Shown piece after piece: positions 46,182 to 63,782 of a stretch of DNA of 64,000 nt. A program made the translations under genes and the position numbers. Numbering within the stretch: position 1 is the first letter of the stretch; each line of letters opens with the position of its first letter. Source of the DNA: a virus; IMG/VR virus record IMGVR_UViG_3300012928_002096, positions 1,549-65,548 of that record; one strand, written 5' to 3'. A model generated the notes under the pieces. It ran no database searches and was not told where the DNA came from. It worked only from the letters and a program-made list of their open reading frames with translations.

Positions 46182-46460
46182 TTATAGCACAAAAAGCTGT
46201 ACAAGAGCAATCGAATTCATTAGTACAAACCAAGCACAAAGTACGATTGCAAAGGCTGCTTTTCTAATTACTGTACTTATAACACCAAGTATACTTCCTA
46301 ACAAATATAAGGGTATAAAAAGCTCAGTAGCAGGATCTAACACAGTAAAAGTTAAGATAACACTGGCTGCCATCAATACTGTAGTTTCAACCATCTCACA
46401 ATAAAAAGCCACGGGTGATAACCTATAGCTTTCTTTTATATATTCTAAAATCTTATTCAT
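46182..46460 (-). CDS. Small membrane protein
   Basis: Three hydrophobic segments. Confidence 0.7.
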   Translation of the reverse strand: MNKILEYIKESYRLSPVAFYCEMVETTVLMAASVILTFTVLDPATELFIPLYLLGSILGVISTVIRKAAFAIVLCAWFVLMNSIALVQLFVL

Positions 46461-46719
46461 CAGTATCGTAACCTGTGGTAGCTACGATTGTTTCTAAATC
46501 CTCAAATTCATCAGATACTCTACTCCAATCACGTTTTTGTGCAACTTTTATTGCTTTATTGATTAGACTAGGCTTTACGTTTAGTTCTTCGGCTACTGCT
46601 TTTACAGTTTCTTTCAGTCCACCTTGTAGATCTTCGATTTCCTGTAATACAGTTACACCTTCTTTCACTAGGCGTTCTAACTTGGCCTTTTCCTCTGGGC
46701 CATACACACGGTCACTCAT
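46453..46719 (-). CDS. T4 DsbA-like small dsDNA-binding protein
   Basis: LKETVKAVAEELNVKPSLINKAIK helical pattern; located upstream of DNA polymerase. Confidence 0.55.
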   Translation of the reverse strand: MSDRVYGPEEKAKLERLVKEGVTVLQEIEDLQGGLKETVKAVAEELNVKPSLINKAIKVAQKRDWSRVSDEFEDLETIVATTGYDTDE

Positions 46720-46744
46720 ATAGTACTCCTTAGTTATTTGTTTT

Positions 46745-46773
46745 ATAGTAATAGAATATTGTCAAAATGTCAA
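46745..46773 (-). promoter_or_regulatory. sigma70-type promoter upstream of the DNA polymerase operon
   Basis: TTGACA-N17-TACTAT. Confidence 0.75.
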
Positions 46774-47216
46774 GCTTTAAATGACCCATCTACGTGTTTA
46801 TCTATATGCGCCAATATTTCATATCCTATAATTTCTGCTTTGTAATCTTGGTGGTCACCTAAGTAAAGATACTTATATCCTTGTGACTTCATCCAAGCAG
46901 GAACGTGGTGACTGAAGCGCCAACCAATACGCTTCCAAGGTTGTTCGTAATTCCAAGCAAATTGTTGACTAAATCCTACTTTATCATTAGGATACATTAA
47001 GGTCTGCTCCCAAGCAATAAGTTTATTATTTTCGTATAAGCAGTTCCAGGCATAAAGGTCAATATCATCCTGATATAAAGGATGTACACTTTCAAAATTT
47101 TTATGTTTGCAATATGTTACAAATACTTCTGTTGCTTCTTTAAGTGTTGGTTTAACATTCACAATGTCTGGATCTAATTCATAGTCTATCTTAGATAAAT
47201 CTATTCTACCGTACAT
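46770..47216 (-). CDS. ATE/Bpt-like aminoacyl-tRNA-protein transferase (C-domain-like)
   Basis: SQQFAWNY...IG...GYKYLYLG...YKAEIIGYEIL resembles the ATE_C YxYLG...YK motif. Confidence 0.55.
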   Translation of the reverse strand: MYGRIDLSKIDYELDPDIVNVKPTLKEATEVFVTYCKHKNFESVHPLYQDDIDLYAWNCLYENNKLIAWEQTLMYPNDKVGFSQQFAWNYEQPWKRIGWRFSHHVPAWMKSQGYKYLYLGDHQDYKAEIIGYEILAHIDKHVDGSFKA

Positions 47217-47892
47217 AATAACCTAACCTTTGTTCTTTGAAATATGGTTCAATATCTTCATACCAATCTTCATAAGGATTATCTATCCATTGATAACCTT
47301 CTTTGACAAGAGATTCTTTATACTCTGTTGTTGTATCTTGCCATATTGGTATATATTCATTCCATTTATCTTCAGTGGTGCCATCTGGATTACCACTAGG
47401 ACGGAAATGTATTTCAATAGGATTGTTTTCTTTGTATTCTACATTAATGATAGGTATGTCTATGGCTGCTAAAGGTTTTGGCAATACAGGTATATCATCA
47501 CTTTTTTTCCATCTTGTGAATTTTATGACATTTGTTTTATCATTCCAGCCTTGCCAATTATGTAAACAGTTCCACTCGTTGTTTTCTTTATAATATGTTG
47601 TTGAAAAATGTCTGCCTTCAAAATACTCACACCAAAAATATCCTGGTGGTACACTTGAAATATCCCCTTTTTCTAAAACTTTTATTGTTGTACAAATACC
47701 CATTCCACCTAAATTATATATAGGTCTTATTACGTATTCTTTTGTTTCAGGAATTTCTGTAGCACCTGGACCGCAACTGTATCCCATTGTTTCAGCTAGG
47801 TATAATTTATTCCACCACTTGTGTAAGTGTGGTAGTTGATTGTAAAGTTCGCGTTCTTCTAGATCGTAATCATCTATCCACTTCAGGCTCAT
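47206..47892 (-). CDS. ATP-grasp-like protein
   Basis: YVIRPIYNLGGMG, WCEYFEGRHFS, INVEY...IEIHFR. Confidence 0.55.
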   Translation of the reverse strand: MSLKWIDDYDLEERELYNQLPHLHKWWNKLYLAETMGYSCGPGATEIPETKEYVIRPIYNLGGMGICTTIKVLEKGDISSVPPGYFWCEYFEGRHFSTTYYKENNEWNCLHNWQGWNDKTNVIKFTRWKKSDDIPVLPKPLAAIDIPIINVEYKENNPIEIHFRPSGNPDGTTEDKWNEYIPIWQDTTTEYKESLVKEGYQWIDNPYEDWYEDIEPYFKEQRLGYYVR

Positions 47893-52185: not shown

Positions 52186-52374
52186 CTATTTATCTTTAGA
52201 GCGTTTACTGTTCTTCTTCTTAGGCTTGCCACCTAGGATGTTTGTGTCAATATCTAAGGCATTTTTTACTGTGCCATCTGGGTTTTTCATTTGTCTACTG
52301 ACCAATCCACCAACAGGCGCTGCTACTGTTGCTACTGCGGCTGCTGTTGTTTCACATAACTCTTTTATCTTCAT
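52186..52374 (-). CDS. Small basic protein with leader MKIKELCE
   Basis: 62 aa, Ala-rich then Lys-rich. Confidence 0.65.
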   Translation of the reverse strand: MKIKELCETTAAAVATVAAPVGGLVSRQMKNPDGTVKNALDIDTNILGGKPKKKNSKRSKDK

Positions 52375-53105
52375 TTTTTCTTTCTACCTGATTTCATATT
52401 CGCACACCAGTGATACATTTTTGCCTTTTCACCGCTTGCTTTTTTAGCACGTTTACGTAAATCTGTTACACTACCATTACAACTAGCACCTGAACGCTTT
52501 ACACGCCCTGGTCTGCTTTTGCCTTTTTTCTTACCATCTGCAAAGTTTTCACCAACTGCTTGTTTAATTGCTTTTGCTGTTCGTTCAAACTTGTGATCTT
52601 TATACTTAAAGCCAATTCCTCCAGCATCTTCCCAAGCATTTATATTAACACCGTAATCGTCAATTAATATGTTAGGACTACCATCTTCGTTTTTGGCAAA
52701 CTTTGGTTTGTTATGTGTAATAAACACATCTTTTGGCGGAAAAAATGCTAGATTATTTTTTATCCATTCACGCTTATGTGGTTCTGATCTTGGATCATCA
52801 GCTAATGGTGAACTACATATAAAATATTGCCCTTTTACTTTTTTAACAAGTCCTAGTAGATCTTTTGCTTGGGGCAGTAAAGGTAAATTCAACCAAAATT
52901 CATCAGTGTCTCTTATTTTTTGTAGTGCATCATCTATGTTATGTTGTTTGTTAATTTGTGTAAAATGGTCAACTTGCATTATTTTAGCCCATTCACCAAA
53001 AAAGTCAGCAAGAACACCATCCATATCAATATAGATTTCTGTATTAGGATTTAATCCTATTTCCTCTCTAAGGTTAATAAAATTTTCTAATTCACCAATC
53101 TTCAT
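52371..53105 (-). CDS. 5'(3')-deoxyribonucleotidase (HAD, NT5C-like) with basic C-terminal module
   Basis: YIDMDGVLADF, ICSSP, ILIDDY..NINAW..AGGIG. Confidence 0.85.
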   Translation of the reverse strand: MKIGELENFINLREEIGLNPNTEIYIDMDGVLADFFGEWAKIMQVDHFTQINKQHNIDDALQKIRDTDEFWLNLPLLPQAKDLLGLVKKVKGQYFICSSPLADDPRSEPHKREWIKNNLAFFPPKDVFITHNKPKFAKNEDGSPNILIDDYGVNINAWEDAGGIGFKYKDHKFERTAKAIKQAVGENFADGKKKGKSRPGRVKRSGASCNGSVTDLRKRAKKASGEKAKMYHWCANMKSGRKKK

Positions 53106-53430: not shown

Positions 53431-53657
53431 TTTGATTTTTTCCTGCTGCGTAAACCTGGAGGATACTCTTGTCCTTTCCAGTACGGACGGCTAAACCATA
53501 ATTTGAACCAATCTTCATCGCCGGGTTGTATATTATTCTTACGTTGTATTCTTGCTTTTTCAGTGCCTGTGTGACTTATATTTTCAGGCACATATGGTGT
53601 AAATCCTGTAAATTTATTCTTAATACCAGCAAGGTGTTGTAAGTCGGCGATATCCAT
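53427..53657 (-). CDS. Small hypothetical protein
   Basis: 76 aa, IQPGDEDWFKLWFSRP. Confidence 0.7.
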   Translation of the reverse strand: MDIADLQHLAGIKNKFTGFTPYVPENISHTGTEKARIQRKNNIQPGDEDWFKLWFSRPYWKGQEYPPGLRSRKKSK

Positions 53658-54181
53658 TATGTTGCCGCTTTTCTTGCCTGTACAATTGCCCTCGCTAAAT
53701 CTGCTGGTGCTGCTCTTGGGAACTCTCTTCTCATATCAGCGAGCAACTGTTTGTCTGTTTTGTAATTAAGGCGTTTTTTTGCATATCTCATATAATCCTT
53801 AAATGGATCTTTTTTACCGTGCATAATTCTATCGCCAATACCTTTAACAAAATCCACAACGCCTTCGGTGACTTCTTCCATTTCGTCATTAATAAGTTCA
53901 CCAACAATCATTTTGATATCTTGTTTATTAAGTAGTTCATTAGGAGCAAAAGGTAATTGATATTTTGCACAGTAATTTTTTAATCCGTTGTTGACCATAT
54001 CATACAAGCCTTTTGTTTGCTTGCTTTTTTTATAATCTTCAAACGCAGGAAAAAATGACTTCCTATAAAACATAGGATCGTTTCTAATATATATTTTTAA
54101 GTCTTCCGCAACGTCATAATCTGGACTTGGATAGATTTCTTTAGGAATATCTATGTCGTGGAATTCATTAATTTTTACCAT
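53657..54181 (-). CDS. Hypothetical protein
   Basis: 174 aa; NDPMFYRK domain plus VTE-GVVDFVKG module. Confidence 0.7.
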   Translation of the reverse strand: MVKINEFHDIDIPKEIYPSPDYDVAEDLKIYIRNDPMFYRKSFFPAFEDYKKSKQTKGLYDMVNNGLKNYCAKYQLPFAPNELLNKQDIKMIVGELINDEMEEVTEGVVDFVKGIGDRIMHGKKDPFKDYMRYAKKRLNYKTDKQLLADMRREFPRAAPADLARAIVQARKAAT

Positions 54182-54299
54182 TTTCTTCTAACCTTTTTTT
54201 GAGATTTTCTATCTCTTTTTTTAATGCTTCAATTGTTTCTTGTGCCTTTTTAAGCTCTTCTAGTCCTCTATATCCGTATTCAGTATAGCCATCTACCAT
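54168..54299 (-). CDS. Small coiled-coil peptide (below ORF-track cutoff)
   Basis: MVDGYTEYGYRGLEELKKAQETIEALKKEIENLKKRLEENGKN*. Confidence 0.45.
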   Translation of the reverse strand: MVDGYTEYGYRGLEELKKAQETIEALKKEIENLKKRLEENGKN

Positions 54300-54865
54300 T
54301 TTCTACAACTCCAGTAACGTGCCTTATGACGCGGTCCTGGATTGTCGCAGTTATGTCTAGCACGAAAACTTCTGCGTCTTGCAGCATTGTTCTTTTTAAT
54401 TTTCATACCTTTTTGTCCAAAGTTTACTTTTACAACATTACCTTTTGGATTTTTGACATATACTTTAAACTTCTTTACATCACCTGCCATAGGCTTGCCT
54501 AGTTTAACTTTACGTCCTTGATATTCTGCTTCCCATACACCGTCTTCATCAACGTATCCAGGGTAACCAAAATATTCGTGAAAGTCTTGATCGTCCTCAA
54601 GAGTAATTTCACTTACATTATCAAAGTCTTCCGTTGCGTTTATTTCGAAATCATTAAGTCCTAGTTCAAATAGTTTCATTGCTACTCCTTCTATTTCATT
54701 TTCATTCAATGCAAACGGAGTGTCAATAGTAACTGTAGAAGAATTATTGTTTTCTTCTAAGGTATATTCACTTACATTTTCTAATAGTTCATTACTTGCA
54801 GTAGATACAGTTTCTGCTACAAGTTGATGATCAAAGTCTGCAAAGGTTATACTTAAATAGTGCAT
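54293..54865 (-). CDS. Protein with acidic N-domain and basic C-terminal module
   Basis: EAEYQGRKVKLGKP...RRSFRARHNCDNPGPRHKARYWSCRKW. Confidence 0.75.
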   Translation of the reverse strand: MHYLSITFADFDHQLVAETVSTASNELLENVSEYTLEENNNSSTVTIDTPFALNENEIEGVAMKLFELGLNDFEINATEDFDNVSEITLEDDQDFHEYFGYPGYVDEDGVWEAEYQGRKVKLGKPMAGDVKKFKVYVKNPKGNVVKVNFGQKGMKIKKNNAARRRSFRARHNCDNPGPRHKARYWSCRKW

Positions 54866-54869
54866 AATA

Positions 54870-55559
54870 CTATTTATCTGTAAAAACTAATTGCTCTATC
54901 CTTTGTATATTATCCCCAACTAACATTTGAGCTATTAGTAATGTTTTAGCGTCACGTACATAAAAGTAGTAACCTTTAACATATCTACTATTTGTAATAC
55001 TTTCTTTGGCTTTGTCACCTATCTTTGCCAGGTGTGGATTTTCGTCTATCCATTTTACTAAGCTAGGTGTTCCTAACTTCTTTCCAAGTGTTACTTTATA
55101 CTGATATTGCGGTTCTTTGTCAACTAAAATAACATTTTTATTTTCTTGTAAAAATTGTATTTGTAAAGGATCGGGTTCATAAAACTCCACCCAATTTTCT
55201 TTGATATTATTTGATAAACTTGTTAAGAACTTCCTATCATTGCTGTATAAATTGAGTCTATGCATTTCAACTCGCACTAAGTAATCTACATCATTCCTTA
55301 TTAAATGTCTGTAAATTGTTATTGCATCATAATAATGTTTTGTATCAATAGATTCTTTAAATCTACTGCCAACAGGTAATGTTATTTGAGGTTTTCTAAA
55401 ATTATGATATCTGTTACATTCATCTAGCTTGCCTTTTGCATAACTTAATGTGCCTTCTTTTTGAAACTCAGTACGGAAAAAAGTAGCACATTGATTACGT
55501 ATACAAAGTTTGTAAAGATACTTGTTATAATGTAACTTTTTACTTTCATACAGTTTCAT
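54870..55559 (-). CDS. Hypothetical protein
   Basis: 229-aa ORF coupled to clpA. Confidence 0.7.
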   Translation of the reverse strand: MKLYESKKLHYNKYLYKLCIRNQCATFFRTEFQKEGTLSYAKGKLDECNRYHNFRKPQITLPVGSRFKESIDTKHYYDAITIYRHLIRNDVDYLVRVEMHRLNLYSNDRKFLTSLSNNIKENWVEFYEPDPLQIQFLQENKNVILVDKEPQYQYKVTLGKKLGTPSLVKWIDENPHLAKIGDKAKESITNSRYVKGYYFYVRDAKTLLIAQMLVGDNIQRIEQLVFTDK

Positions 55560-57792
55560 TTTCTTCTACCAAACAATCTAATTTGATTTCATCTTCTCTG
55601 AAATCGATTGTAACACTTCCGCCATTTTTAAGTTCACCAAAAAGTATTTTTTTACTTAGAGGACGTTTAATTTGTGCATCAATTACACGCTGTAACGGTC
55701 TTGCACCCATTTTAGGATTGAATCCTTTGTCAACTAAGAAGTCAAGAGCTTCGTCAGTAATGTCAATAGCAATATCTTTTTCTTGTACTTGTTGTTTTAG
55801 CTCTAGTAAAAACTTACCTACAATTTTCATCATTACTGGCTTGTCAAGTTTACCAAATGTAATAACACCATCTAGCCTGTTTCTAAACTCAGGTGGAAAA
55901 TATTTTTTAAAGTCAGTATCTTCATAGTCTTTATCGCTATCTTCACCAAAACCAATTGCATTTTTCTCAGCATCTTGTGACCCTAAGTTAGTAGTTAGTA
56001 TAAGTGTAGCATTACGTGCATCTGCTTCTTTACCGTTACTGCCTGTTACTCTACCATTGTCCATAATTTGTAACAAAATAGTGCTGATGTCTGGATGTGC
56101 TTTTTCTATTTCATCTAAAAGTAATACACAGTTTGGATTTTCTTGCAGTTTAGTAATAAGTTGGCCTGCGTCTTCTTCAAAACCTACATAACCTGGAGGC
56201 GAGCCAATCAGTTTACTAATACTATGCTTTTCTTGGAATTCACTCATATCAAAACGCACAAGTTTTACACCCAAATGATGTGCTAGTTGCTTGCTTAGTT
56301 CTGTTTTACCAACACCTGTTGGACCCATAAACACAAAACTACCAATTGGTTTGTTTTCACTTTTTAGTCCTGCTTGTGCTACTAAGATTTTATCAACAAT
56401 ATCTTCGATAGCATTGTCTTGACCATACACAACTGTTTTTAGATTATCTTCTAAGTTTGCTAAGTTTTCGCTTTCACGTTCTTTTACCTGTTCTTCAGGC
56501 AAGTTAATCATTTTTGCTAATTCAAACTGTATACTTTCTTCAGTTACAACTTTATTTTCAACTTGATCATTTACTTTGAATCTACTACAAGCAACATCAA
56601 TCAAATCTATTGCTTTATCAGGCAATTTTTTATCAGTTTGATATTTTACGCTAAGTTTTACGGCTGCGTTTATTGCTTCTTCTGTAATAGTAGTATTATG
56701 ATAACTTTCATAATATTGTTTAATACCTTTAAGTATTCTTACAGTGTTTTCTTGTGAAGGTTCGTCAACATTTACCCTTTGAAATCTTCTCATCAACGCA
56801 CGATCTTTTTCAAAGAACTTACGATACTCTTCCCAAGTTGTACTTGCAACAACTTTCAAGTTACCTTTAGTCAAAGCAGGCTTTAACATATTTGCCATAT
56901 CATTTGCACTGTTACTACCGCTTGCACCAGCACCACTTATCATATGTGCTTCGTCGATAAACATAATAGTTTTGCCTTTTTTCTGCAATGCAGAAATAAC
57001 CAACTTGAAACGCTCTTCAAAATCTCCTCTATACTTTGATCCTGCTAACATACTGCCAATATCCAATGTATAAACATTGTATTCTTTTAAAAACTCTGGT
57101 ACACTTCCGTGGACAATATTGTATGCAAGTCCTTCAGCAATAGCAGTCTTACCCACACCTGGTTCACCAACCATTAGCACATTACTTTTGCTTCTTCTAC
57201 CAAGTGCAAGTGCTACTTGCTCTAGTTCTTCACTGCGTCCAATAATAGGATCAATTTTATTATTTTTAACAAGACTGTTTAAGTCGCTTGTAAACTCTTT
57301 TAGTGCTTTATTAGCAATACCCATATTTTCTTGTGGGTTGTCATCGTCACTTCTATCAAATTCTGTGCTAATATAGTCTGCAAATTGCTGTTTATTTACA
57401 CCAGCCTGCTGTGTAATAAAATACGCATAACTTTTCTTTTCACTTAGTATACTTAGAAATACATCTGATATTTCTATCATATTACGCATACTAAACAATA
57501 CTTGTGTAAACGCTCTATTCAATACACGTTCTACTGTTTGTGTCTTAGCAGGTTTATATTCTTTACCTTTCTCAACTAAAATATTATCAAGTTTAGTTCT
57601 GAGATAATTTTCCAAATTCTTTTTAATATATTCAACGTCTGTGCCAAATCCTGTGACAAGTTCACTGAAATTATTTTCACACAACATTGCATATAGTAAA
57701 TGTTCTAATGTCACATACTCGTGACGTAGTTTTACTGCGTCTTTGACTACTTTATCAAATACAAGTTGTAATTCTTTAGACGGTTCTACCAT
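55546..57792 (-). CDS. clpA: ATP-dependent Clp protease ATP-binding subunit ClpA
   Basis: Clp_N (HEYVTLEHLL), two AAA modules (GEPGVGKT, GPTGVGKT), IGF ClpP-docking loop (NAIGFG), MGARPL. Confidence 0.95.
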   Translation of the reverse strand: MVEPSKELQLVFDKVVKDAVKLRHEYVTLEHLLYAMLCENNFSELVTGFGTDVEYIKKNLENYLRTKLDNILVEKGKEYKPAKTQTVERVLNRAFTQVLFSMRNMIEISDVFLSILSEKKSYAYFITQQAGVNKQQFADYISTEFDRSDDDNPQENMGIANKALKEFTSDLNSLVKNNKIDPIIGRSEELEQVALALGRRSKSNVLMVGEPGVGKTAIAEGLAYNIVHGSVPEFLKEYNVYTLDIGSMLAGSKYRGDFEERFKLVISALQKKGKTIMFIDEAHMISGAGASGSNSANDMANMLKPALTKGNLKVVASTTWEEYRKFFEKDRALMRRFQRVNVDEPSQENTVRILKGIKQYYESYHNTTITEEAINAAVKLSVKYQTDKKLPDKAIDLIDVACSRFKVNDQVENKVVTEESIQFELAKMINLPEEQVKERESENLANLEDNLKTVVYGQDNAIEDIVDKILVAQAGLKSENKPIGSFVFMGPTGVGKTELSKQLAHHLGVKLVRFDMSEFQEKHSISKLIGSPPGYVGFEEDAGQLITKLQENPNCVLLLDEIEKAHPDISTILLQIMDNGRVTGSNGKEADARNATLILTTNLGSQDAEKNAIGFGEDSDKDYEDTDFKKYFPPEFRNRLDGVITFGKLDKPVMMKIVGKFLLELKQQVQEKDIAIDITDEALDFLVDKGFNPKMGARPLQRVIDAQIKRPLSKKILFGELKNGGSVTIDFREDEIKLDCLVEENETV

Positions 57793-58312
57793 TTACTTTC
57801 CTTTTATATTTTTTATGTCTTTTCTTTTCTGCTAAGTTTAATTTTAATTTAGACACTCTATTAATGAATTGCACACCTTGTAAATGATCATACTCGTGTA
57901 AGAATATTCTTGCATCAATATCATCAAATTTTGTTTCTACGTGTATTACGCTTTTACCATCTGGTGTAATAGTATCAAATTCTACCATACAACTCATAGG
58001 ACGTCTTACTTTCAAAAACAAGTCAGGATGACTCAAACAACCTTCAACACCTAGTTCAAGTTCTTTACTCAAACCTTTAATCATTGGATTAATTACTGTA
58101 GTTATGTCGCCATATTGTTTATTAAGCATAGTTCTCATAACAAAAATTTGTCCGTCAAATCCTACTTGATTTGCACTGAGTCCTAAACCGTGATGCTTAC
58201 GCATTACGTCCATCATATCAAATGCAATTGGCGCCGGATGTATATTTGTAATATCAAACGGTCGTACAGAATTTTCTAACATAACATCAGGTGCGAGAAT
58301 TAAGTTCATCAT
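57776..58312 (-). CDS. def: Peptide deformylase
   Basis: GLGLSANQVG, EGCLS, HEYDHLQG. Confidence 0.95.
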   Translation of the reverse strand: MMNLILAPDVMLENSVRPFDITNIHPAPIAFDMMDVMRKHHGLGLSANQVGFDGQIFVMRTMLNKQYGDITTVINPMIKGLSKELELGVEGCLSHPDLFLKVRRPMSCMVEFDTITPDGKSVIHVETKFDDIDARIFLHEYDHLQGVQFINRVSKLKLNLAEKKRHKKYKRKVNGRTV

Positions 58313-59090
58313 TTAACTGTCTTATCCTATCTAAATCTTCATACCTATCTAATTTAGGCGTAGTTCCTTTTACTTCAACATACACGTTGCCTGTACGTTG
58401 TGTTTTATAATCTTTGATTCCGTAACCTGGAATACTTAATATTGTGCCTGGATGTGTGCCTGGAGGAATCTTAATAGCAATTGTGCCTCCTCCTAATTTG
58501 TCTATAGTTGTTTCTGTGCCTAAAATAAGTTCTAATACATTTATACTACAAAATGTTCTCAAATGCAACCTATCTCTTACATATTTTGGATGACTTTTAA
58601 CATTTATTTTAGCAAGTAAGTTTCCCCTTGGTAGTTGTTTAAAATAGTTGTCACCTAAGCCTGCAAGTTGTAATATTTGTCCGCTTTCAATGCCTGCTGG
58701 TACGTGAATATTTGCAACTACTTCTTCACCAGAACGTAACTGATATCTGCCAATAATATTTTTGCCTTGTATAACATCTTCTAAATTAACATTTACATTA
58801 ATAGTAACATCTTGATTTCGCCTTTGTACTCTTCTGCCTTGGTGAAAAAACGCTCCAAAAATATCATTCATATTTTGACTGTTGAAATTCATTTCTGGTC
58901 TAGGAGGAGCATCATAATGAGCCTTTTTATCAGGATCTTTTAGCGTGTCATATGCTTCATTTATTTCTTGAAACATTTTTTGGTCACCACCTTTGTCAGG
59001 GTGATGCTTCATTGCTAATTTTTTATATGCTCGTTTGAGTTCTTCAGGAGATGCTGATTTGTCAACACCTAACCGCTTGTAATAGTCCAT
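58287..59090 (-). CDS. dnaJ: DnaJ/CbpA-type co-chaperone (no Zn finger)
   Basis: J domain YKKLAMKHHPDKGG; DnaJ_C region. Confidence 0.9.
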   Translation of the reverse strand: MDYYKRLGVDKSASPEELKRAYKKLAMKHHPDKGGDQKMFQEINEAYDTLKDPDKKAHYDAPPRPEMNFNSQNMNDIFGAFFHQGRRVQRRNQDVTINVNVNLEDVIQGKNIIGRYQLRSGEEVVANIHVPAGIESGQILQLAGLGDNYFKQLPRGNLLAKINVKSHPKYVRDRLHLRTFCSINVLELILGTETTIDKLGGGTIAIKIPPGTHPGTILSIPGYGIKDYKTQRTGNVYVEVKGTTPKLDRYEDLDRIRQLNDELNSRT

Positions 59091-59884: not shown

Positions 59885-60307
59885 TTACCATAAATCAGTA
59901 TTACACCAGTATTGTTCTGCACCAGGCTGAAGTGAATCACAGCCACGTATTAGTAATTCGATCATTTCTGTAAGGTCTTGTGAAATACCTGTAATTATTG
60001 CAAGAAAAATAAACAAGAAAAATAGTATAAATGGACTTGAAAGAATTAACCACCAATAAGTTCTAAATATTCCGTATCCGTGTGCTTTACGATATTCTCT
60101 TTTGCGTTGGAACCAATGCACAATTCCTTTTATAATGTTTTTGATTCCTTCAACAAACCATTCGCCTATAAAGTGTCTAATAACTCTAACAACAATAAGG
60201 ATTGGACTTGCAATAACTTCCCAAATTAAAAGCAATGCATCTACAATAAGATCAACTACGTGATCTACTGTCCACCATTCCTTAAAACGTTGCCAACGAC
60301 TTTTCAT
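59885..60307 (-). CDS. Membrane protein
   Basis: Two hydrophobic segments. Confidence 0.65.
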   Translation of the reverse strand: MKSRWQRFKEWWTVDHVVDLIVDALLLIWEVIASPILIVVRVIRHFIGEWFVEGIKNIIKGIVHWFQRKREYRKAHGYGIFRTYWWLILSSPFILFFLFIFLAIITGISQDLTEMIELLIRGCDSLQPGAEQYWCNTDLW

Positions 60308-60801
60308 TTTTCAGCCCTATACCTTCTTATACTTATACTTCTATGCGGATTATATCTTTCATACCTAACTTTATTGTCTTGATTGCCGCCTAAAATTACC
60401 CAGTATTCTTTGCCGTTGTAAATTTGTGTTTCTACATAAAATCCAACGTGTCCTTTCCACCCTTCATCACCTCTTGGAAAAATAACAATATCACCACGGC
60501 GTATATCGTGGCGTTGTACAGTATCTCCCCAATTCAAAAAACTTCTTGCTAATAATGGATTATCACTTACAGATTCACTGCCTGGAATATTGTCCTGTGC
60601 TAATACTGCATTTACAAACGCTGCACACCATTCTGTATACAGCGGGTCAACACCTACTAATTCTTTTATTTGCTTTCTATGTTGACGTTCTTCTAGTCCA
60701 ACGTACGGTTGAGCTGTGCCTATACTATCATCTGTAGTGACTTGACAACCTAATAATATAAAACTTAAAAGTAGAATTATATTATTCTTGAACCACAGCA
60801 T
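60304..60801 (-). CDS. TIGR02594-like NlpC/P60-CHAP peptidase, predicted lipoprotein
   Basis: Lipobox FILLGC; WCAAFVN, ARSFLNWG, GHVGFY, LGGNQ. Confidence 0.8.
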   Translation of the reverse strand: MLWFKNNIILLLSFILLGCQVTTDDSIGTAQPYVGLEERQHRKQIKELVGVDPLYTEWCAAFVNAVLAQDNIPGSESVSDNPLLARSFLNWGDTVQRHDIRRGDIVIFPRGDEGWKGHVGFYVETQIYNGKEYWVILGGNQDNKVRYERYNPHRSISIRRYRAEK

Positions 60802-61171
60802 TATCCATTGCTTCTTCTGCTTGTTCGTAGTAACCTTCATACGCTGCTATTATTGCTTGTTGCTGTTGCACTAATGCACGTATATCTGAAAAGTTCAAAC
60901 CTAAATTTCCGTATCCATCTCCTGTAAGTGCATATAATGCAAAGGCTTGTCCTTCTGTTTCAAGTTTATTAATTACTGCGTCTACATTACCTTCGTTGAT
61001 TACTATCCATTCTACTTTACGCATATTAAGTTCGTCAACTGGAGGCAACTGTAGTGTTGGTTTTTCAATTGGTTTAGAGCTTACTTCAATCTGCTGTGGC
61101 TTCGTCGAGCAGGCCGCGAGACTTATAAGTATCGTAAAGCCAAGGACACTCTTTGTTAAAAGCGATGTCAT
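60782..61171 (-). CDS. o-spanin-like lipoprotein
   Basis: Signal peptide with lipobox LAAC; Pro-rich then helical; start lies inside the i-spanin 3' end. Confidence 0.7.
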   Translation of the reverse strand: MTSLLTKSVLGFTILISLAACSTKPQQIEVSSKPIEKPTLQLPPVDELNMRKVEWIVINEGNVDAVINKLETEGQAFALYALTGDGYGNLGLNFSDIRALVQQQQAIIAAYEGYYEQAEEAMDNAVVQE

Positions 61172-61574
61172 TTTTTGCTGTCCTTTCTTTTTCATTGAGT
61201 TCTGCCCCCGACAATAATTCAAAGCATCTACCAGCATTTTCTGTGCCTCTATTTACTGCACGTTCTATACCATCTGCATTTGCTATGGCTGCTGCTGTCA
61301 AATCGATTTCTTGTAATTTATCTGCTAATTTTTGATTTTGTCTACGTATAGCAGTATAAGCATTATTTAAACTAGATATTTCGTTTTGAGCACTTGCATA
61401 GTCTGCTTGTAAACTTTCAAGTGCTTGCTCGTTTGTTTCAACTGCTATTTCTAATTTTGCGTTGTTTTCATTTAGTATTGCAATACGGGCTTGTGTGTCA
61501 TTATAATACCAATAACCTATGCCGCCCATAGCACACATAACTAAAAACATTACTGCTGCTAGTTTCAAGCCCAT
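61086..61574 (-). CDS. i-spanin-like protein
   Basis: N-terminal TM, long coiled coil, C-terminal Cys pair. Confidence 0.7.
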   Translation of the reverse strand: MGLKLAAVMFLVMCAMGGIGYWYYNDTQARIAILNENNAKLEIAVETNEQALESLQADYASAQNEISSLNNAYTAIRRQNQKLADKLQEIDLTAAAIANADGIERAVNRGTENAGRCFELLSGAELNEKERTAKNDIAFNKECPWLYDTYKSRGLLDEATAD

Positions 61575-61585
61575 ACCTTTACCAC

Positions 61586-62449
61586 CTACCCTAATAACTT
61601 TCCCAGTGTATTTGGTCCTACAATACCGTCTGCAACAAGACCATTTGCACTTTGCCACTCTTTAACAATACGTGCAGTACCAGGTCCAAAAATACCATCA
61701 GCAGGTGAAATATCAAGTCTTTCTTGTACTTCTGCTACTAATGGACCACGTGAACCTTGACGTATTGTTTGGTTAGTGTTAAGTTCTTTTTCTTCTTCTG
61801 GTTCTATTTCCATATCACCGCCTAAAACATCTAATGCGTGTGCCCAATGTTTTTTACGATCTTCTAGTCCAATAGTACCTCCGTTGATACGTTTGGTCAT
61901 TTTTAAAATGTCCATATTATCACAGTGTTTGTTAATATTGTTTTCGTCCCAGAACCAGCAAGCACTATCTAATGCACCTTTTTTGGTACGCACATAATCT
62001 ACTGCTTCTTCTGGTGTCATTTCTACATCTTCTGCGAATTCTGTGTAATTGTATCTTCCTGTAAGTTGTAGTATTCCGCCACCACGGAATCTCCAGCCGT
62101 CGCCGCTGTCAACATCACCATTGTCCATTCTGTTGGCATATATGACGTTAGCAATCCTTTCAGGTTGTCTATGATATTCGTTTGCATCTCTACCAGCCCT
62201 TTTAAAATATTTTGGAAATATAACATTTAGTGCTTTTGCACTGTAATTCAAGTTTTCACTTAGCACTCTAAAACCACCTGATTCGTGTCCACATTGTGCA
62301 ATAAATCCTGCAACTCTTGGTATTGTATTGACATCCCACAACGGCAGTATTTCAAGCATTGCTTCATACCAATCTTCCCAATCACTTCTATGGATTAGTT
62401 CTTCTGCCATCCACGGTTCAAAATCAAAATCAAAATCTTCTTTAGCCAT
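61586..62449 (-). CDS. GH19 chitinase-class endolysin with C-terminal peptidoglycan-binding domain
   Basis: FIAQCGHESGGF, FRGGGILQLTGRYNY, TKRINGGTIGLEDR; ADGIFGPGT and ADGIVGPNT. Confidence 0.92.
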   Translation of the reverse strand: MAKEDFDFDFEPWMAEELIHRSDWEDWYEAMLEILPLWDVNTIPRVAGFIAQCGHESGGFRVLSENLNYSAKALNVIFPKYFKRAGRDANEYHRQPERIANVIYANRMDNGDVDSGDGWRFRGGGILQLTGRYNYTEFAEDVEMTPEEAVDYVRTKKGALDSACWFWDENNINKHCDNMDILKMTKRINGGTIGLEDRKKHWAHALDVLGGDMEIEPEEEKELNTNQTIRQGSRGPLVAEVQERLDISPADGIFGPGTARIVKEWQSANGLVADGIVGPNTLGKLLG

Positions 62450-62615
62450 TTTTAGTTTCCTTTACTTCCGGGGTGCAGGCTTCACAACTGCAAGATTCAC
62501 ATAATTTTATTATTGTATTTGGTGAAGCATAGTTAGGTACACCACAATGTCCAGGGTGTCCGCAGTTTTTACAATATGTTCCGTTATAGTCTTTCGACCA
62601 CGAGTGTATGTCCAT
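62442..62615 (-). CDS. Cys/His-rich microprotein (below ORF-track cutoff)
   Basis: MDIHSWSKDYNGTYCKNCGHPGHC...LCESCSCEAC...NG*, 57 aa. Confidence 0.55.
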   Translation of the reverse strand: MDIHSWSKDYNGTYCKNCGHPGHCGVPNYASPNTIIKLCESCSCEACTPEVKETKNG

Positions 62616-63279
62616 TGTTTTCCAGTGTTAACGTTTTGTCACCGTATTTGGTAACATTGTAGTCTCCAAGGTATTTAGTTAAAAACAATATTTCAGGATA
62701 TGCTTCTATGTTTATTTTTTCATTGATTTGCACATCTTCTGTTTTATTAAAATCTTTGATAGTAAATGCTATTGGATCAGCATATACCTTTTTAATAATA
62801 ATATTTTCGCCTATAAAGTCTACTTGCCCTGCTAAACTTGAAAAGAATGTTTCTGCATTTTCCATTACAGTTAAACTATATGTTCTTGCATCAATTGGTA
62901 CTATTTCTTGCAAATTATCGATAGTTGCATCATAACTGCTGAAGTTTTTGTAGTATCTAAATTTAAAAGATTCTGTAGCTGAAAGTTCTCCAATACCATA
63001 TAGCATTGATACAATGTTTTCATTTACACTTGTGTTTCTTTCCATTTCTACAAAAACTTTGTAAGTGCCATTATCTAGTTCACTTACAGTAGAGTCTGCG
63101 TCTAAAACAAAGTCATATGATTTTTCAATAAATTCTACTAAATCTTTTGCTGCGGCAGCTTCGCTTACACTAAAACTTACTACAACAACATCTTCGTCAT
63201 CACCCATTTTACTTTTAAAATTATCTATTTCAAAAACCGGATTTAATAGATCACGCAAGTCTCCATTTCTCAAACCCAT
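62584..63279 (-). CDS. Hypothetical phage protein
   Basis: 231 aa, KSKMGDDEDVVVVSF...DLVEFIE...VLDAD. Confidence 0.75.
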   Translation of the reverse strand: MGLRNGDLRDLLNPVFEIDNFKSKMGDDEDVVVVSFSVSEAAAAKDLVEFIEKSYDFVLDADSTVSELDNGTYKVFVEMERNTSVNENIVSMLYGIGELSATESFKFRYYKNFSSYDATIDNLQEIVPIDARTYSLTVMENAETFFSSLAGQVDFIGENIIIKKVYADPIAFTIKDFNKTEDVQINEKINIEAYPEILFLTKYLGDYNVTKYGDKTLTLENNGHTLVVERL

Positions 63280-63782
63280 TATACTGCTCCTGGTACTTCT
63301 TCTTGTGTAGGAGCAGGTTGCACTGTTTCTGCACTCGGTTGCTCTTCTTTATCATACAAATCTTTATCGCCACTGTAGATATCTAATATCAAACTTTTTG
63401 GCATTTTGATTTCTACTACCCAAACTGGCACTTTGTCTAGTTTACCTTTTTTTGTACCTGGACGAATGTCTCCTGGCTTGCGTATTTGTCGTGCTTTTAT
63501 AATATGTGTTTTTTCAAAATTAATTTTACAACCATAATCAAGCAAAATTTTACCACCTGCTGGATCTGGCATATCTTTGCGTGGCCACATAAATGAACAA
63601 GTTACCCAATGTCTTTCAATTTTTGGACCTGCTGCTAGTTCGCCTTCGCTCCAATTTTCAAAAACATATAAACCTAAACTATCTATTACTCTTTCGAAAT
63701 CTTTTAAAATTGTAAAAGCTTTATCGTTTTCGTGAATAGTTTGTAAATTTTGTATTACGTCTAAAGTATCTAAAACAGCCAT
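63279..63782 (-). CDS. Hypothetical phage protein
   Basis: 167 aa, GAGGA RBS, late-promoter motif upstream. Confidence 0.75.
   Translation of the reverse strand: MAVLDTLDVIQNLQTIHENDKAFTILKDFERVIDSLGLYVFENWSEGELAAGPKIERHWVTCSFMWPRKDMPDPAGGKILLDYGCKINFEKTHIIKARQIRKPGDIRPGTKKGKLDKVPVWVVEIKMPKSLILDIYSGDKDLYDKEEQPSAETVQPAPTQEEVPGAV

What the first reader, a model, noticed from the sequence alone, without database searches (positions are those of the whole stretch)
55546..59090. dnaJ-def-clpA operon plus a distant ATE/Bpt-like transferase: a phage-encoded N-degron proteolysis route
Seen: overlapping dnaJ, def and clpA genes; ClpA keeps both AAA modules and the IGF loop; no clpS or clpP is in the window. 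Known: deformylation precedes N-terminal processing, Bpt/Aat add Leu N-degrons, ClpS-ClpAP degrades them, and J-proteins deliver substrates. Inference: the phage rewires host protein quality control by supplying its own tagger, deformylase and unfoldase and borrowing host ClpP/ClpS, possibly to destroy defence proteins.
Basis: partly seen in the sequence, partly recalled or inferred. Interest (0 to 1): 0.7.

Follow-up and report, generated by a model that had tools for sequence, protein, structure and literature searches.

The report
Jumbo-phage DnaJ–deformylase–ClpA proteostasis operon
An uncultured aquatic giant phage carries a tightly packed operon for a folding helper, a protein-maturation enzyme and a ClpA unfolding motor. 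Its closest relatives also encode their own ClpS adaptor and ClpP protease, the same gene order is already annotated in cultured giant phages, and the proposed "tagging" enzyme is not linked to it.

Summary
dnaJ-like (58287-59090), def (57776-58312) and clpA (55546-57792) overlap on the minus strand, all catalytic motifs are intact, and the ClpP-docking IGF loop is invariant in 80 of 80 relatives.

- **Fragment:** the window covers about 19% of a roughly 350-kb phage genome.
- **ClpS and ClpP:** a 98%-identical strain and a complete 357-kb relative encode their own ClpS and a genuine ClpP, so this strain and that complete relative need borrow neither.
- **ATE-like gene:** the 148-residue gene at 46770-47216 has a single GNAT fold and no Pfam ATE_C match. 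It is absent from both near-complete relatives and from all GenBank phages, and occurs in only 7 of 25 related loci that span its region.
- **def:** it is missing in 12 of 80 loci, and deformylation cannot create the Leu/Phe/Tyr/Trp N-termini that ClpS reads.

The conserved core is DnaJ-ClpA plus an overlooked, phage-only 229-residue gene (54870-55559) that overlaps the clpA stop. DnaJ-ClpA is already annotated in PA5oct and Atu_ph07, and DnaJ-PDF-ClpA in Sinorhizobium phage Phosso. Phage ClpS and ClpP were discussed by Iyer et al. 2021.

Verdict: a new member of a known jumbo-phage proteostasis module. An N-degron function is plausible but untested.

The parts
58287..59090 (-). J-domain co-chaperone, class-B/CbpA-like (J domain with HPD plus DnaJ_C; no zinc finger, no Cys)
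   Evidence: Pfam DnaJ 1e-21 and DnaJ_C 2e-29. Sequence. Single-stretch match to the CbpA model PRK10266. HPD is kept in 71 of 71 relatives. The gene sits directly upstream of clpA or def in 75 of 80 loci.
57776..58312 (-). Peptide deformylase, type 1B-like, with a basic C-terminal tail
   Evidence: Pfam Pep_deformylase 2e-32. Motifs GLGLSANQ, EGCLS and HEYDH are present and kept in 65-66 of 66 relatives. Closest solved structure is plant PDF1B, E 3e-21. 38% identical to the Phosso PDF in the same position. Present in 68 of 80 loci.
55546..57792 (-). ClpA-type double-ring AAA+ unfoldase with N-domain and IGF ClpP-docking loop
   Evidence: best NCBIfam model TIGR02639 ClpA, 889 bits. phrog_4871 at 1.6e-250. 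Motif conservation across 80 relatives.
54870..55559 (-). o229: phage-only 229-aa protein of two ferredoxin-like domains. It overlaps the clpA stop by 14 nt. Function unknown (candidate ClpA partner).
   Evidence: Present in 78 of 80 loci right after clpA. AlphaFold pLDDT 93.9. No PDB match above noise. Virus-only clusters in the ESM Atlas. 1110 cluster representatives at E<=1e-3. A locus (L097) fetched with a divergent family member holds an o229 homologue only 29% identical to the window's, again directly after DnaJ-ClpA.
53657..54865 (-). Two conserved downstream genes of unknown function (o190 at 54293-54865, o174 at 53657-54181)
   Evidence: Each present in 71 of 80 loci in the same order. 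Only phrog_7595, of unknown function, matches o190.
46770..47216 (-). The 'ATE/Bpt-like' gene: a single GNAT-fold domain of 148 aa. It is an accessory gene in a variable region and not part of the conserved Clp module.
   Evidence: No family hit. Model pLDDT 83. Foldseek best matches are the tandem GNAT MAB_4324 and MprF/aa-PG synthases, with KlAte1 at rank 30. Profile versus KlAte1 gives E 0.11. Distribution.
47206..47892 (-). 228-aa neighbour of the GNAT gene (phrog_3577, function unknown). Its motifs look ATP-grasp-like.
   Evidence: Present in 10 of 25 spanning loci, mostly without the GNAT gene.

Best explanation
The window holds part of a proteostasis toolkit conserved in a large clade of uncultured aquatic jumbo phages. 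A translationally coupled operon encodes four proteins:
- A CbpA-like J-protein. The phages have no Hsp70, so it must act through host DnaK.
- An active-looking peptide deformylase that matures the flood of phage nascent chains.
- A ClpA hexameric unfoldase.
- A phage-only 229-residue protein of unknown role.

ClpA docks through its invariant IGF loops onto ClpP. This is the phage's own ClpP where one is encoded (the near-identical strain G003, the complete relative G001, and G013), and presumably host ClpP otherwise. A phage ClpS, encoded next to a small heat-shock protein elsewhere in the genome, binds the ClpA N-domain. It can hand over proteins that start with Leu, Phe, Tyr or Trp.

The module therefore most likely remodels and degrades misfolded, aggregated or specifically marked proteins while the phage mass-produces its several hundred proteins.

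Shown here: gene content, motif integrity, synteny and conservation. Inferred: complex formation, N-degron use, and timing. The ATE-like gene is not part of the system.
For: - **Domains and motifs:**
- **IGF loop:** invariant in 80 of 80 ClpA homologues although its flanks vary. Walker and pore motifs are also conserved.
- **Synteny:** DnaJ-(Def)-ClpA-o229 holds across 80 loci, and the overlaps are conserved.
- **Phage ClpP:** Pfam 6e-64 to 6e-81, Ser-His-Asp triad aligned, N-terminal loop kept. It scores 243 bits on the ClpP model against 86 bits on the head-maturation protease model.
- **Phage ClpS:** found in both genomes that are at least 90% complete and in the 98%-identical strain. NDDxTPM, the His66 equivalent and the Glu79/Glu82/Lys84 equivalents are kept.
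- **ClpS neighbourhood:** HSP20-ClpS adjacency in 5 of 5 records.
- **Sole ATPase partner:** ClpA is the only Hsp100/Clp ATPase in G001, G002 and G003.
- **No phage Hsp70:**
- **Cultured phages:** the same module is annotated in Phosso, Atu_ph07 and PA5oct, and ClpS in 34 phage records.
- **Literature:** PMC7824862, PMC6102473.
Against: - There is no experimental data for any phage ClpA, ClpS or ClpP.
- The 93%-complete relative G002 shows no ClpP.
- ClpS and ClpP are not in the window's own 67-kb record. Their presence is inferred from a 98.2%-identical strain.
- No source of N-degrons is encoded: no Aat, Bpt or MetAP.
- In cultured relatives clpA sits among virion structural genes. That also fits a pure assembly-chaperone role.
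- All five proteins score below NCBIfam equivalog cut-offs.
Confidence: 0.6

Rival explanations
1. The phage supplies a tagger (an ATE/Bpt-like transferase), a deformylase and ClpA, borrows host ClpS and ClpP, and so builds an N-degron route that destroys host (defence) proteins.
For: - The GNAT-fold gene resembles aminoacyl-tRNA-dependent transferases (MprF, KlAte1) among its Foldseek hits, and it has a marginal profile hit to KlAte1.
- ClpA keeps the N-domain residues aligned with the E. coli ClpS-contact positions.
- G002 may rely on host ClpP.
Against: - ClpS and ClpP are phage-encoded.
- The GNAT gene is absent from both near-complete relatives and from all GenBank phages, although 197 of those records match the ClpA query (113 over at least 80% of its length; some records look bacterial).
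- It occurs in only 7 of 25 spanning loci.
- It has no ATE_C or Leu_Phe_trans match and no ATE_N domain.
- It lies 8 kb away in a variable region next to polB.
- Deformylation does not generate ClpS-type N-degrons (established knowledge).
Confidence: 0.05
2. ClpA, working with the J-protein, acts mainly as a ClpP-independent remodelling chaperone or translocase for virion assembly, or for loading internal and ejection proteins. ClpS and ClpP are unrelated extras.
For: - clpA lies among virion structural genes in PA5oct, Muenster, XaC1 and Vibrio phage 2.275.O.
- In the window it follows structural and lysis genes.
- Iyer et al. propose this role (PMC7824862).
- No ClpP was found in the 93%-complete G002.
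- Established knowledge: ClpA alone remodels P1 RepA, as DnaK/DnaJ do.
Against: - The IGF docking tripeptide is invariant in 80 of 80 homologues while its flanks vary. That argues for selection on ClpP binding.
- ClpA is the only phage ATPase that could serve the phage ClpP.
- ClpA and DnaJ are not flagged as MS-detected virion proteins in PA5oct, unlike their neighbours.
Confidence: 0.2
3. A host-takeover device. Phage ClpS, ClpA and ClpP redirect bulk proteolysis toward host proteins to recycle amino acids or remove specific host factors. PDF and DnaJ only support phage translation.
For: - Iyer et al. suggest phage ClpS brings targets to ClpAP, and note a patchy peptidase distribution typical of anti-host functions.
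- ClpS pocket residues are conserved.
- ClpP is patchy among relatives.
Against: - No substrates are known.
- The tight, ancient linkage of clpA with dnaJ and def, and of clpS with an sHSP, looks like quality control rather than a weapon.
- The slow evolution of ClpA (70-94% identity) is unlike arms-race genes.
Confidence: 0.15

Closest known systems
Sinorhizobium phage Phosso (PV764938), genes 193-195: DnaJ-like protein, peptide deformylase, Clp-family ATPase, plus a separate ClpS
   Same: Same three genes in the same order and orientation. ClpA is 44.5% identical, PDF 38% (with the same basic tail) and DnaJ 30%. ClpS is encoded elsewhere in the genome.
   Different: Phosso is a cultured soil phage of 469 kb. 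Its genes do not overlap. The gene after clpA is an unrelated 117-aa ORF, and it has no o229.
Agrobacterium phage Atu_ph07 (DnaJ gp293, ClpA gp292, with ClpS, ClpP, ClpX, ClpB) and Pseudomonas phage PA5oct (DnaJ EST35_0297, ClpA EST35_0298, with ClpS)
   Same: DnaJ lies directly upstream of ClpA. ClpS is phage-encoded (PMC6102473). ClpA is conserved across RaK2-like jumbo phages.
   Different: There is no def between dnaJ and clpA and no o229. Atu_ph07 adds ClpX and ClpB, which are absent here.
E. coli ClpS-ClpA-ClpP Leu/N-degron pathway
   Same: ClpA aligns end to end with all mechanistic motifs. ClpS aligns with residues 11-104 and keeps the pocket and ClpA-docking residues. ClpP keeps its triad.
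   Different: - The three genes are dispersed over about 80 kb instead of forming a clpS-clpA operon.
- No Aat or Bpt is encoded.
- The docking tripeptide is IGF, not IGL.
- The ClpS N-terminal extension is about 6 residues shorter, with one Pro instead of Pro-Pro at the junction.
- ClpP has a 10-residue insertion.
Viral peptide deformylases (cyanophage S-SSM7 PDF, PMC3660681; Vibrio phage Vp16 PDF, PMC5591237)
   Same: A phage-encoded active-site-complete PDF. PDF is reported as a very abundant viral gene family and as part of huge-phage translation toolkits (PMC7162821).
   Different: Here it is embedded between a J-protein gene and clpA, and it keeps a long basic C-terminal tail. The Vp16 type lacks the C-terminal helix.

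Membership tests
ClpA (class I Hsp100, ClpP-binding) | Two AAA+ modules with Walker A/B motifs and KYR / GYVG pore-1 loops | tested here: met
   GEPGVGKT/FIDEAH and GPTGVGKT/LLLDEIEKAH, plus AGSKYRGDFE and PPGYVGF.
ClpA (class I Hsp100, ClpP-binding) | Clp_N domain present and no ClpB/ClpC-type middle domain | tested here: met
   Clp_N hit. One uninterrupted alignment to E. coli ClpA residues 4-739, whereas ClpB and ClpC align in two stretches.
ClpA (class I Hsp100, ClpP-binding) | IG(L/F) ClpP-docking loop | tested here: met
   IGF is aligned to E. coli IGL and is invariant in 80 of 80 relatives. Its role is described in PMC9663308.
ClpA (class I Hsp100, ClpP-binding) | Curated equivalog score (NCBIfam TIGR02639) | tested here: inconclusive
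   It is the best-scoring model at 889 bits, but below the 993-bit cut-off. ClpB scores 683 bits. This is a divergent phage branch, phrog_4871.
Peptide deformylase | Three metal/catalytic motifs: GxGxAAxQ, EGCxS, HExxH | tested here: met
   GLGLSANQ, EGCLS and HEYDH, conserved in relatives. The Pfam score is above its cut-off.
DnaJ proper (class A J-protein) | Cys-rich zinc-finger domain between the G/F region and the C-terminal domains | tested here: not met
   The protein has no Cys. TIGR02349 aligns in two pieces that skip the finger. It is filed instead as a class-B/CbpA-like J-protein: J domain with HPD plus DnaJ_C.
ClpS N-recognin (off-window, L084:1450-1752 in the 98%-identical strain) | ClpS fold, N-degron pocket residues (E. 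coli N34, D35, T38, M40, H66) and ClpA-docking residues (E79, E82, K84) | tested here: met
   Pfam 94 bits against a cut-off of 23. Alignment to E. coli ClpS shows all of these positions kept. The residue list comes from my own knowledge of the ClpS literature. Binding was not tested.
ClpP peptidase (off-window, L082:1465-2082) | Ser-His-Asp triad and genuine ClpP rather than a ClpP-like prohead protease | tested here: met
   The triad aligns with solved ClpPs. It scores 243.5 bits on the ClpP subfamily model against 85.7 bits on the head-maturation model.
ATE1 / Bpt aminoacyl-tRNA-protein transferases | ATE_N plus ATE_C domain pair (tandem GNAT-like architecture) | tested here: not met
   The gene at 46770-47216 is one 148-aa GNAT domain. 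There is no Pfam hit at E<=0.1 and no six-frame ATE_C hit at E<=10. The only sequence link is E 0.11 to KlAte1. Foldseek ranks generic GNATs and MprF above Ate1.
ATE1 / Bpt aminoacyl-tRNA-protein transferases | Aminoacyl-tRNA-dependent transfer to protein N-termini | not testable with these tools
   This needs a biochemical assay.
Complete bacterial Leu/N-degron pathway | A degron-generating transferase (Aat or Bpt) alongside ClpS-ClpAP | tested here: not met
   No Leu_Phe_trans or ATE_C in G001 (100% complete), G002 (93%), G003, G011 or G013. A host enzyme or an endoprotease would have to supply the degrons.

The most novel reading that the evidence does not exclude
This abundant aquatic jumbo-phage clade runs a self-sufficient ClpS-ClpA-ClpP N-degron protease that is independent of the host's. 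The phage-only, fast-evolving protein translationally coupled to clpA (o229) is a new kind of ClpA adaptor or anti-adaptor that chooses its targets, for example host defence or takeover-relevant proteins.
Probability: 0.12. Interest if true: 0.7.

Novelty: new member of a known kind. Interest (0 to 1): 0.33.

Why it matters
Phage-encoded Clp components are listed in jumbo-phage genome papers, but none has been studied biochemically. This clade is very common in aquatic metagenomes, with at least 598 viral contigs. It shows the full ClpS-ClpA-ClpP set, an ancient DnaJ-(PDF)-ClpA linkage, and an unknown gene welded to clpA.

That gives three clear and cheap experimental entry points, ideally in the cultured relatives PA5oct or Phosso:
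- Do giant phages bring their own regulated protease?
- What does it degrade?
- Does the N-degron reader matter for infection?

The specific claim of a phage 'tagger' feeding the route can be dropped.

Tried and rejected
- **Megablast of the operon against GenBank phages:** no match.
- **Pfam ATE_C and Leu_Phe_trans:** nothing in the own record even at E<=10, and nothing in five relatives.
- **Hsp70 and MetAP in relatives:** none.
- **Sigma-70 promoter, terminator and T4 late-promoter (TATAAATA) scans:** no signal above shuffles, so no promoter assignment is made.
- **tRNA/tmRNA in the window:** none.
- **o229:**
  - Foldseek and VIA-align gave only generic ferredoxin-like matches with Z<=5.7, below the noise level.
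  - It is unrelated to the ORFs after clpA in Phosso and Atu_ph07.
  - It has no tblastn hit in GenBank phages.
  - I considered a divergent ClpP for o229 and rejected it: no Ser-His-Asp pattern among the invariant columns and a different fold.
- **Context of distant o229 relatives:**
  - Two single-protein locus searches found nothing.
  - The alignment query was too divergent.
  - One search succeeded.
- **Literature:** I found no paper in the searched library with an experiment on phage ClpA, ClpS or ClpP.
- **Suspect records:** 'Acinetobacter phage MD-2021a' and 'Ralstonia phage YO084_1', which have adjacent clpS-clpA, look like bacterial DNA. I did not use them as phage evidence.


Full report
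**What is there.** The window is 64 kb of a 67-kb IMG/VR viral record that CheckV rates about 19% complete, so the parent genome is a jumbo phage of roughly 350 kb. On the minus strand, ORFs at 58287-59090, 57776-58312 and 55546-57792 overlap by 26 and 17 nt. A fourth ORF at 54870-55559 overlaps the clpA stop by 14 nt.

Pfam assigns the following:
- DnaJ and DnaJ_C to the first ORF.
- Pep_deformylase to the second.
- Clp_N, AAA, AAA_lid_9, AAA_2 and ClpB_D2-small to the third.
- Nothing to the fourth.

**ClpA.** The 748-residue protein aligns in one piece with E. coli ClpA residues 4-739 (E 3e-201). ClpB and ClpC align in two pieces, so there is no middle domain. [quoted passage not shown] An IGF tripeptide sits where E. 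coli has the IGL ClpP-docking loop. The roles of these loops are described in PMC9663308.

Across 80 related viral loci the IGF tripeptide is invariant while the residues around it vary freely. The other motifs are also conserved. The best NCBIfam model is ClpA (889 bits), below the curated equivalog cut-off of 993 and well above ClpB at 683. The protein belongs to phrog_4871.

**PDF and the J-protein.** The deformylase has all three signature motifs (GLGLSANQ, EGCLS, HEYDH) and a basic C-terminal tail. The motifs hold in 65-66 of 66 relatives. Its closest solved relative is a type 1B PDF.

The J-protein has the HPD motif and the C-terminal substrate-binding domains. It has no cysteine and therefore no zinc finger, and it matches the CbpA model in a single stretch. 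It is a class-B/CbpA-like co-chaperone, not DnaJ proper. No Hsp70 is encoded in five relatives, including one complete genome, so it would have to use host DnaK.

**Conservation.** A search with ClpA in IMG/VR found at least 598 viral stretches. The best 80 (70-100% identity) were kept. Counts for each gene:

| Gene | Loci with it (of 80) | Note |
|---|---|---|
| DnaJ | 75 | directly upstream of clpA or def |
| o229 | 78 | directly after clpA; 28-59% identity outside the window's closest kin |
| def | 68 | cleanly absent in 12 loci, where dnaJ abuts clpA |
| o190 | 71 | downstream, same order |
| o174 | 71 | downstream, same order |

The order DnaJ-(Def)-ClpA-o229-o190-o174 is kept throughout. 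ClpA itself is 70-94% identical across these loci. The gene overlaps are conserved too: DnaJ/Def overlap by 26 nt in 47 of 59 loci, and Def/ClpA by 8-17 nt in 62 of 66. A locus (L097) fetched with a divergent member of the o229 family holds an o229 homologue only 29% identical to the window's. It again sits right after DnaJ-ClpA, with no def.

**The missing partners are phage-encoded.** Record G003 (134 kb) is 98.2% identical to the window over the 11.3 kb they share. It extends the genome beyond the window's end.

- **ClpP.** G003 carries a 205-residue ClpP (Pfam 213 bits) with the Ser-His-Asp triad and the N-terminal axial loop aligned to solved ClpPs. It scores far better on the ClpP model than on the ClpP-like head-maturation model.
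- **ClpS.** G003 also carries a 100-residue ClpS (Pfam 94 bits against a cut-off of 23). In it the NDDxTPM stretch, the His66 equivalent and the Glu79/Glu82/Lys84 equivalents align with E. coli ClpS. These positions are also kept in four further clade members.
- **Distribution.** ClpS is present in both genomes that are at least 90% complete (G001 at 357.6 kb and G002 at 330 kb), and in 5 of 21 long records overall. ClpP is in G001, G003 and G013 but not in G002.
- **Only one ATPase.** ClpA is the only Hsp100/Clp ATPase in G001, G002 and G003, so phage ClpP has no other phage-encoded partner.
- **ClpS neighbourhood.** ClpS always sits after an HSP20 small heat-shock gene and before a heme-oxygenase-like gene, in 5 of 5 records.

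'Borrowing host ClpS/ClpP' is therefore wrong for this strain. It may hold for ClpP in some relatives.

**The 'ATE/Bpt-like transferase'.** The GNAT-like member is the 148-residue ORF at 46770-47216. Its 228-residue neighbour (47206-47892) looks ATP-grasp-like from its motifs.

- **Sequence:** neither ORF has a Pfam or NCBIfam hit, and the 148-residue gene has no PHROG hit either. Its 228-residue neighbour matches only phrog_3577, of unknown function. Six-frame searches for ATE_C and Leu_Phe_trans are empty even at E<=10. A profile of eight homologues reaches KlAte1 only at E 0.11.
- **Fold:** the AlphaFold model (pLDDT 83) is a single GNAT domain. Foldseek ranks a tandem GNAT, the aminoacyl-phosphatidylglycerol synthases (MprF), acetyltransferases and N-myristoyltransferases alongside Ate1, which is at rank 30. 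Kinship with aminoacyl-tRNA transferases is possible but not established, and the ATE_N/ATE_C architecture is absent.
- **Distribution:** the gene is absent from both near-complete relatives and from all 50,697 GenBank phage records. By contrast, 197 of those records match the ClpA query (113 of them over at least 80% of its length, and a few look like bacterial DNA) and 34 match ClpS. It occurs in 7 of the 25 related loci that span the variable region between the small-protein cluster and polB.

**Does def feed ClpS?** From established knowledge, deformylation followed by Met excision exposes only small second residues. ClpS binds N-terminal Leu, Phe, Tyr or Trp, which arise by endoproteolysis or by Aat/Bpt. 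None of Aat, Bpt or MetAP is encoded in the relatives.

A different link is conceivable. Retained formyl-Met is itself a bacterial degradation signal whose recognin is unknown (PMC13234167). An extra PDF could then protect mass-produced phage proteins rather than mark them. The usual reading of viral PDFs is support of translation and maturation (PMC3660681, PMC5591237, PMC7162821).

**What is already known.**
- Sinorhizobium phage Phosso has DnaJ-like, PDF and Clp ATPase genes annotated in the same order, plus ClpS. Its PDF shares 38% identity and the basic tail with the window's. The trio therefore predates the split of these lineages, and def has been lost in some.
- Atu_ph07 and PA5oct have DnaJ directly upstream of ClpA without def.
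- Attai et al. list ClpA, DnaJ, ClpS, ClpP, ClpX and ClpB in Atu_ph07, and note that ClpA is conserved in RaK2-like phages (PMC6102473).
- Iyer et al. discuss jumbo-phage ClpP, ClpS (citing the N-end rule), ClpA/ClpX and DnaJ (PMC7824862).
- I found no experimental study of any of these proteins in the searched library.

**Context.** Upstream of the operon lie two virion structural genes, an endolysin, an Rz-like spanin and a CHAP-domain gene. In RaK2-like phages and in PA5oct, clpA also sits among structural genes. This keeps alive the rival that ClpA is mainly an assembly chaperone. The invariant IGF loop and the phage ClpP argue that proteolysis matters.

**Verdict.** The tagger link is refuted as far as comparative data can go. 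The module is a new member of a known, annotated but unstudied jumbo-phage proteostasis set. The most interesting loose end is o229, a large virus-only family (1110 cluster representatives) welded to clpA.

Noticed in passing
window 54870-55559 (-): o229 is a confidently folded (pLDDT 94) two-domain ferredoxin-like protein. It overlaps the clpA stop, is present after clpA in 78 of 80 loci, belongs to a virus-only family with over 1000 cluster representatives, and has no known relative or function.
   Followed up: partly
L084:958-2596 (record G003), also L083, L085, L091, L092: An HSP20 small heat-shock gene, clpS and a heme-oxygenase-like gene are adjacent in all five related records that hold clpS. 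A GMP-reductase/IMPDH-like gene lies upstream.
   Followed up: partly
window 46182-47892 and the matching stretch of 25 related loci: The interval between the small-protein cluster and polB is a variable region. The GNAT gene (148 aa) and the ATP-grasp-like gene (228 aa) occur together only in the window's closest kin (2 of 25 loci). Otherwise one of them (5 and 8 loci) or neither (10 loci) is present.
   Followed up: partly
L059-L062, L064, L065, L067, L070, L074, L078-L080: def is cleanly absent in these 12 loci and dnaJ abuts clpA, as in Atu_ph07 and PA5oct. In L043 and L044 about 1.3 kb is inserted between dnaJ and def.
   Followed up: no
window 60304-62449 (-): A lysis-type cluster lies just upstream of the operon: an endolysin with a PG_binding_1 domain (61586-62449), an Rz-like spanin (60782-61237) and a CHAP-domain protein (60304-60840). 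It is preceded by two virion structural genes (62584-63782).
   Followed up: no
L082:1465-2082 (record G003): The phage ClpP starts at the mature N-terminus (no propeptide) and has a 10-residue insertion in the handle region compared with solved ClpPs. Its neighbours are a radical-SAM-like gene and a WYL_2 gene.
   Followed up: no
GenBank CAKLQF020000008.1, CAKLQH020000043.1, ON170137.1: Records labelled 'Acinetobacter phage MD-2021a' and 'Ralstonia phage YO084_1' carry adjacent clpS-clpA, as bacteria do. They may be bacterial DNA filed as phage.
   Followed up: no
window 52371-53105 (-): An NT5C-type 5'-deoxynucleotidase (Pfam 8e-08) sits within the cluster of small conserved genes downstream of clpA.
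   Followed up: no
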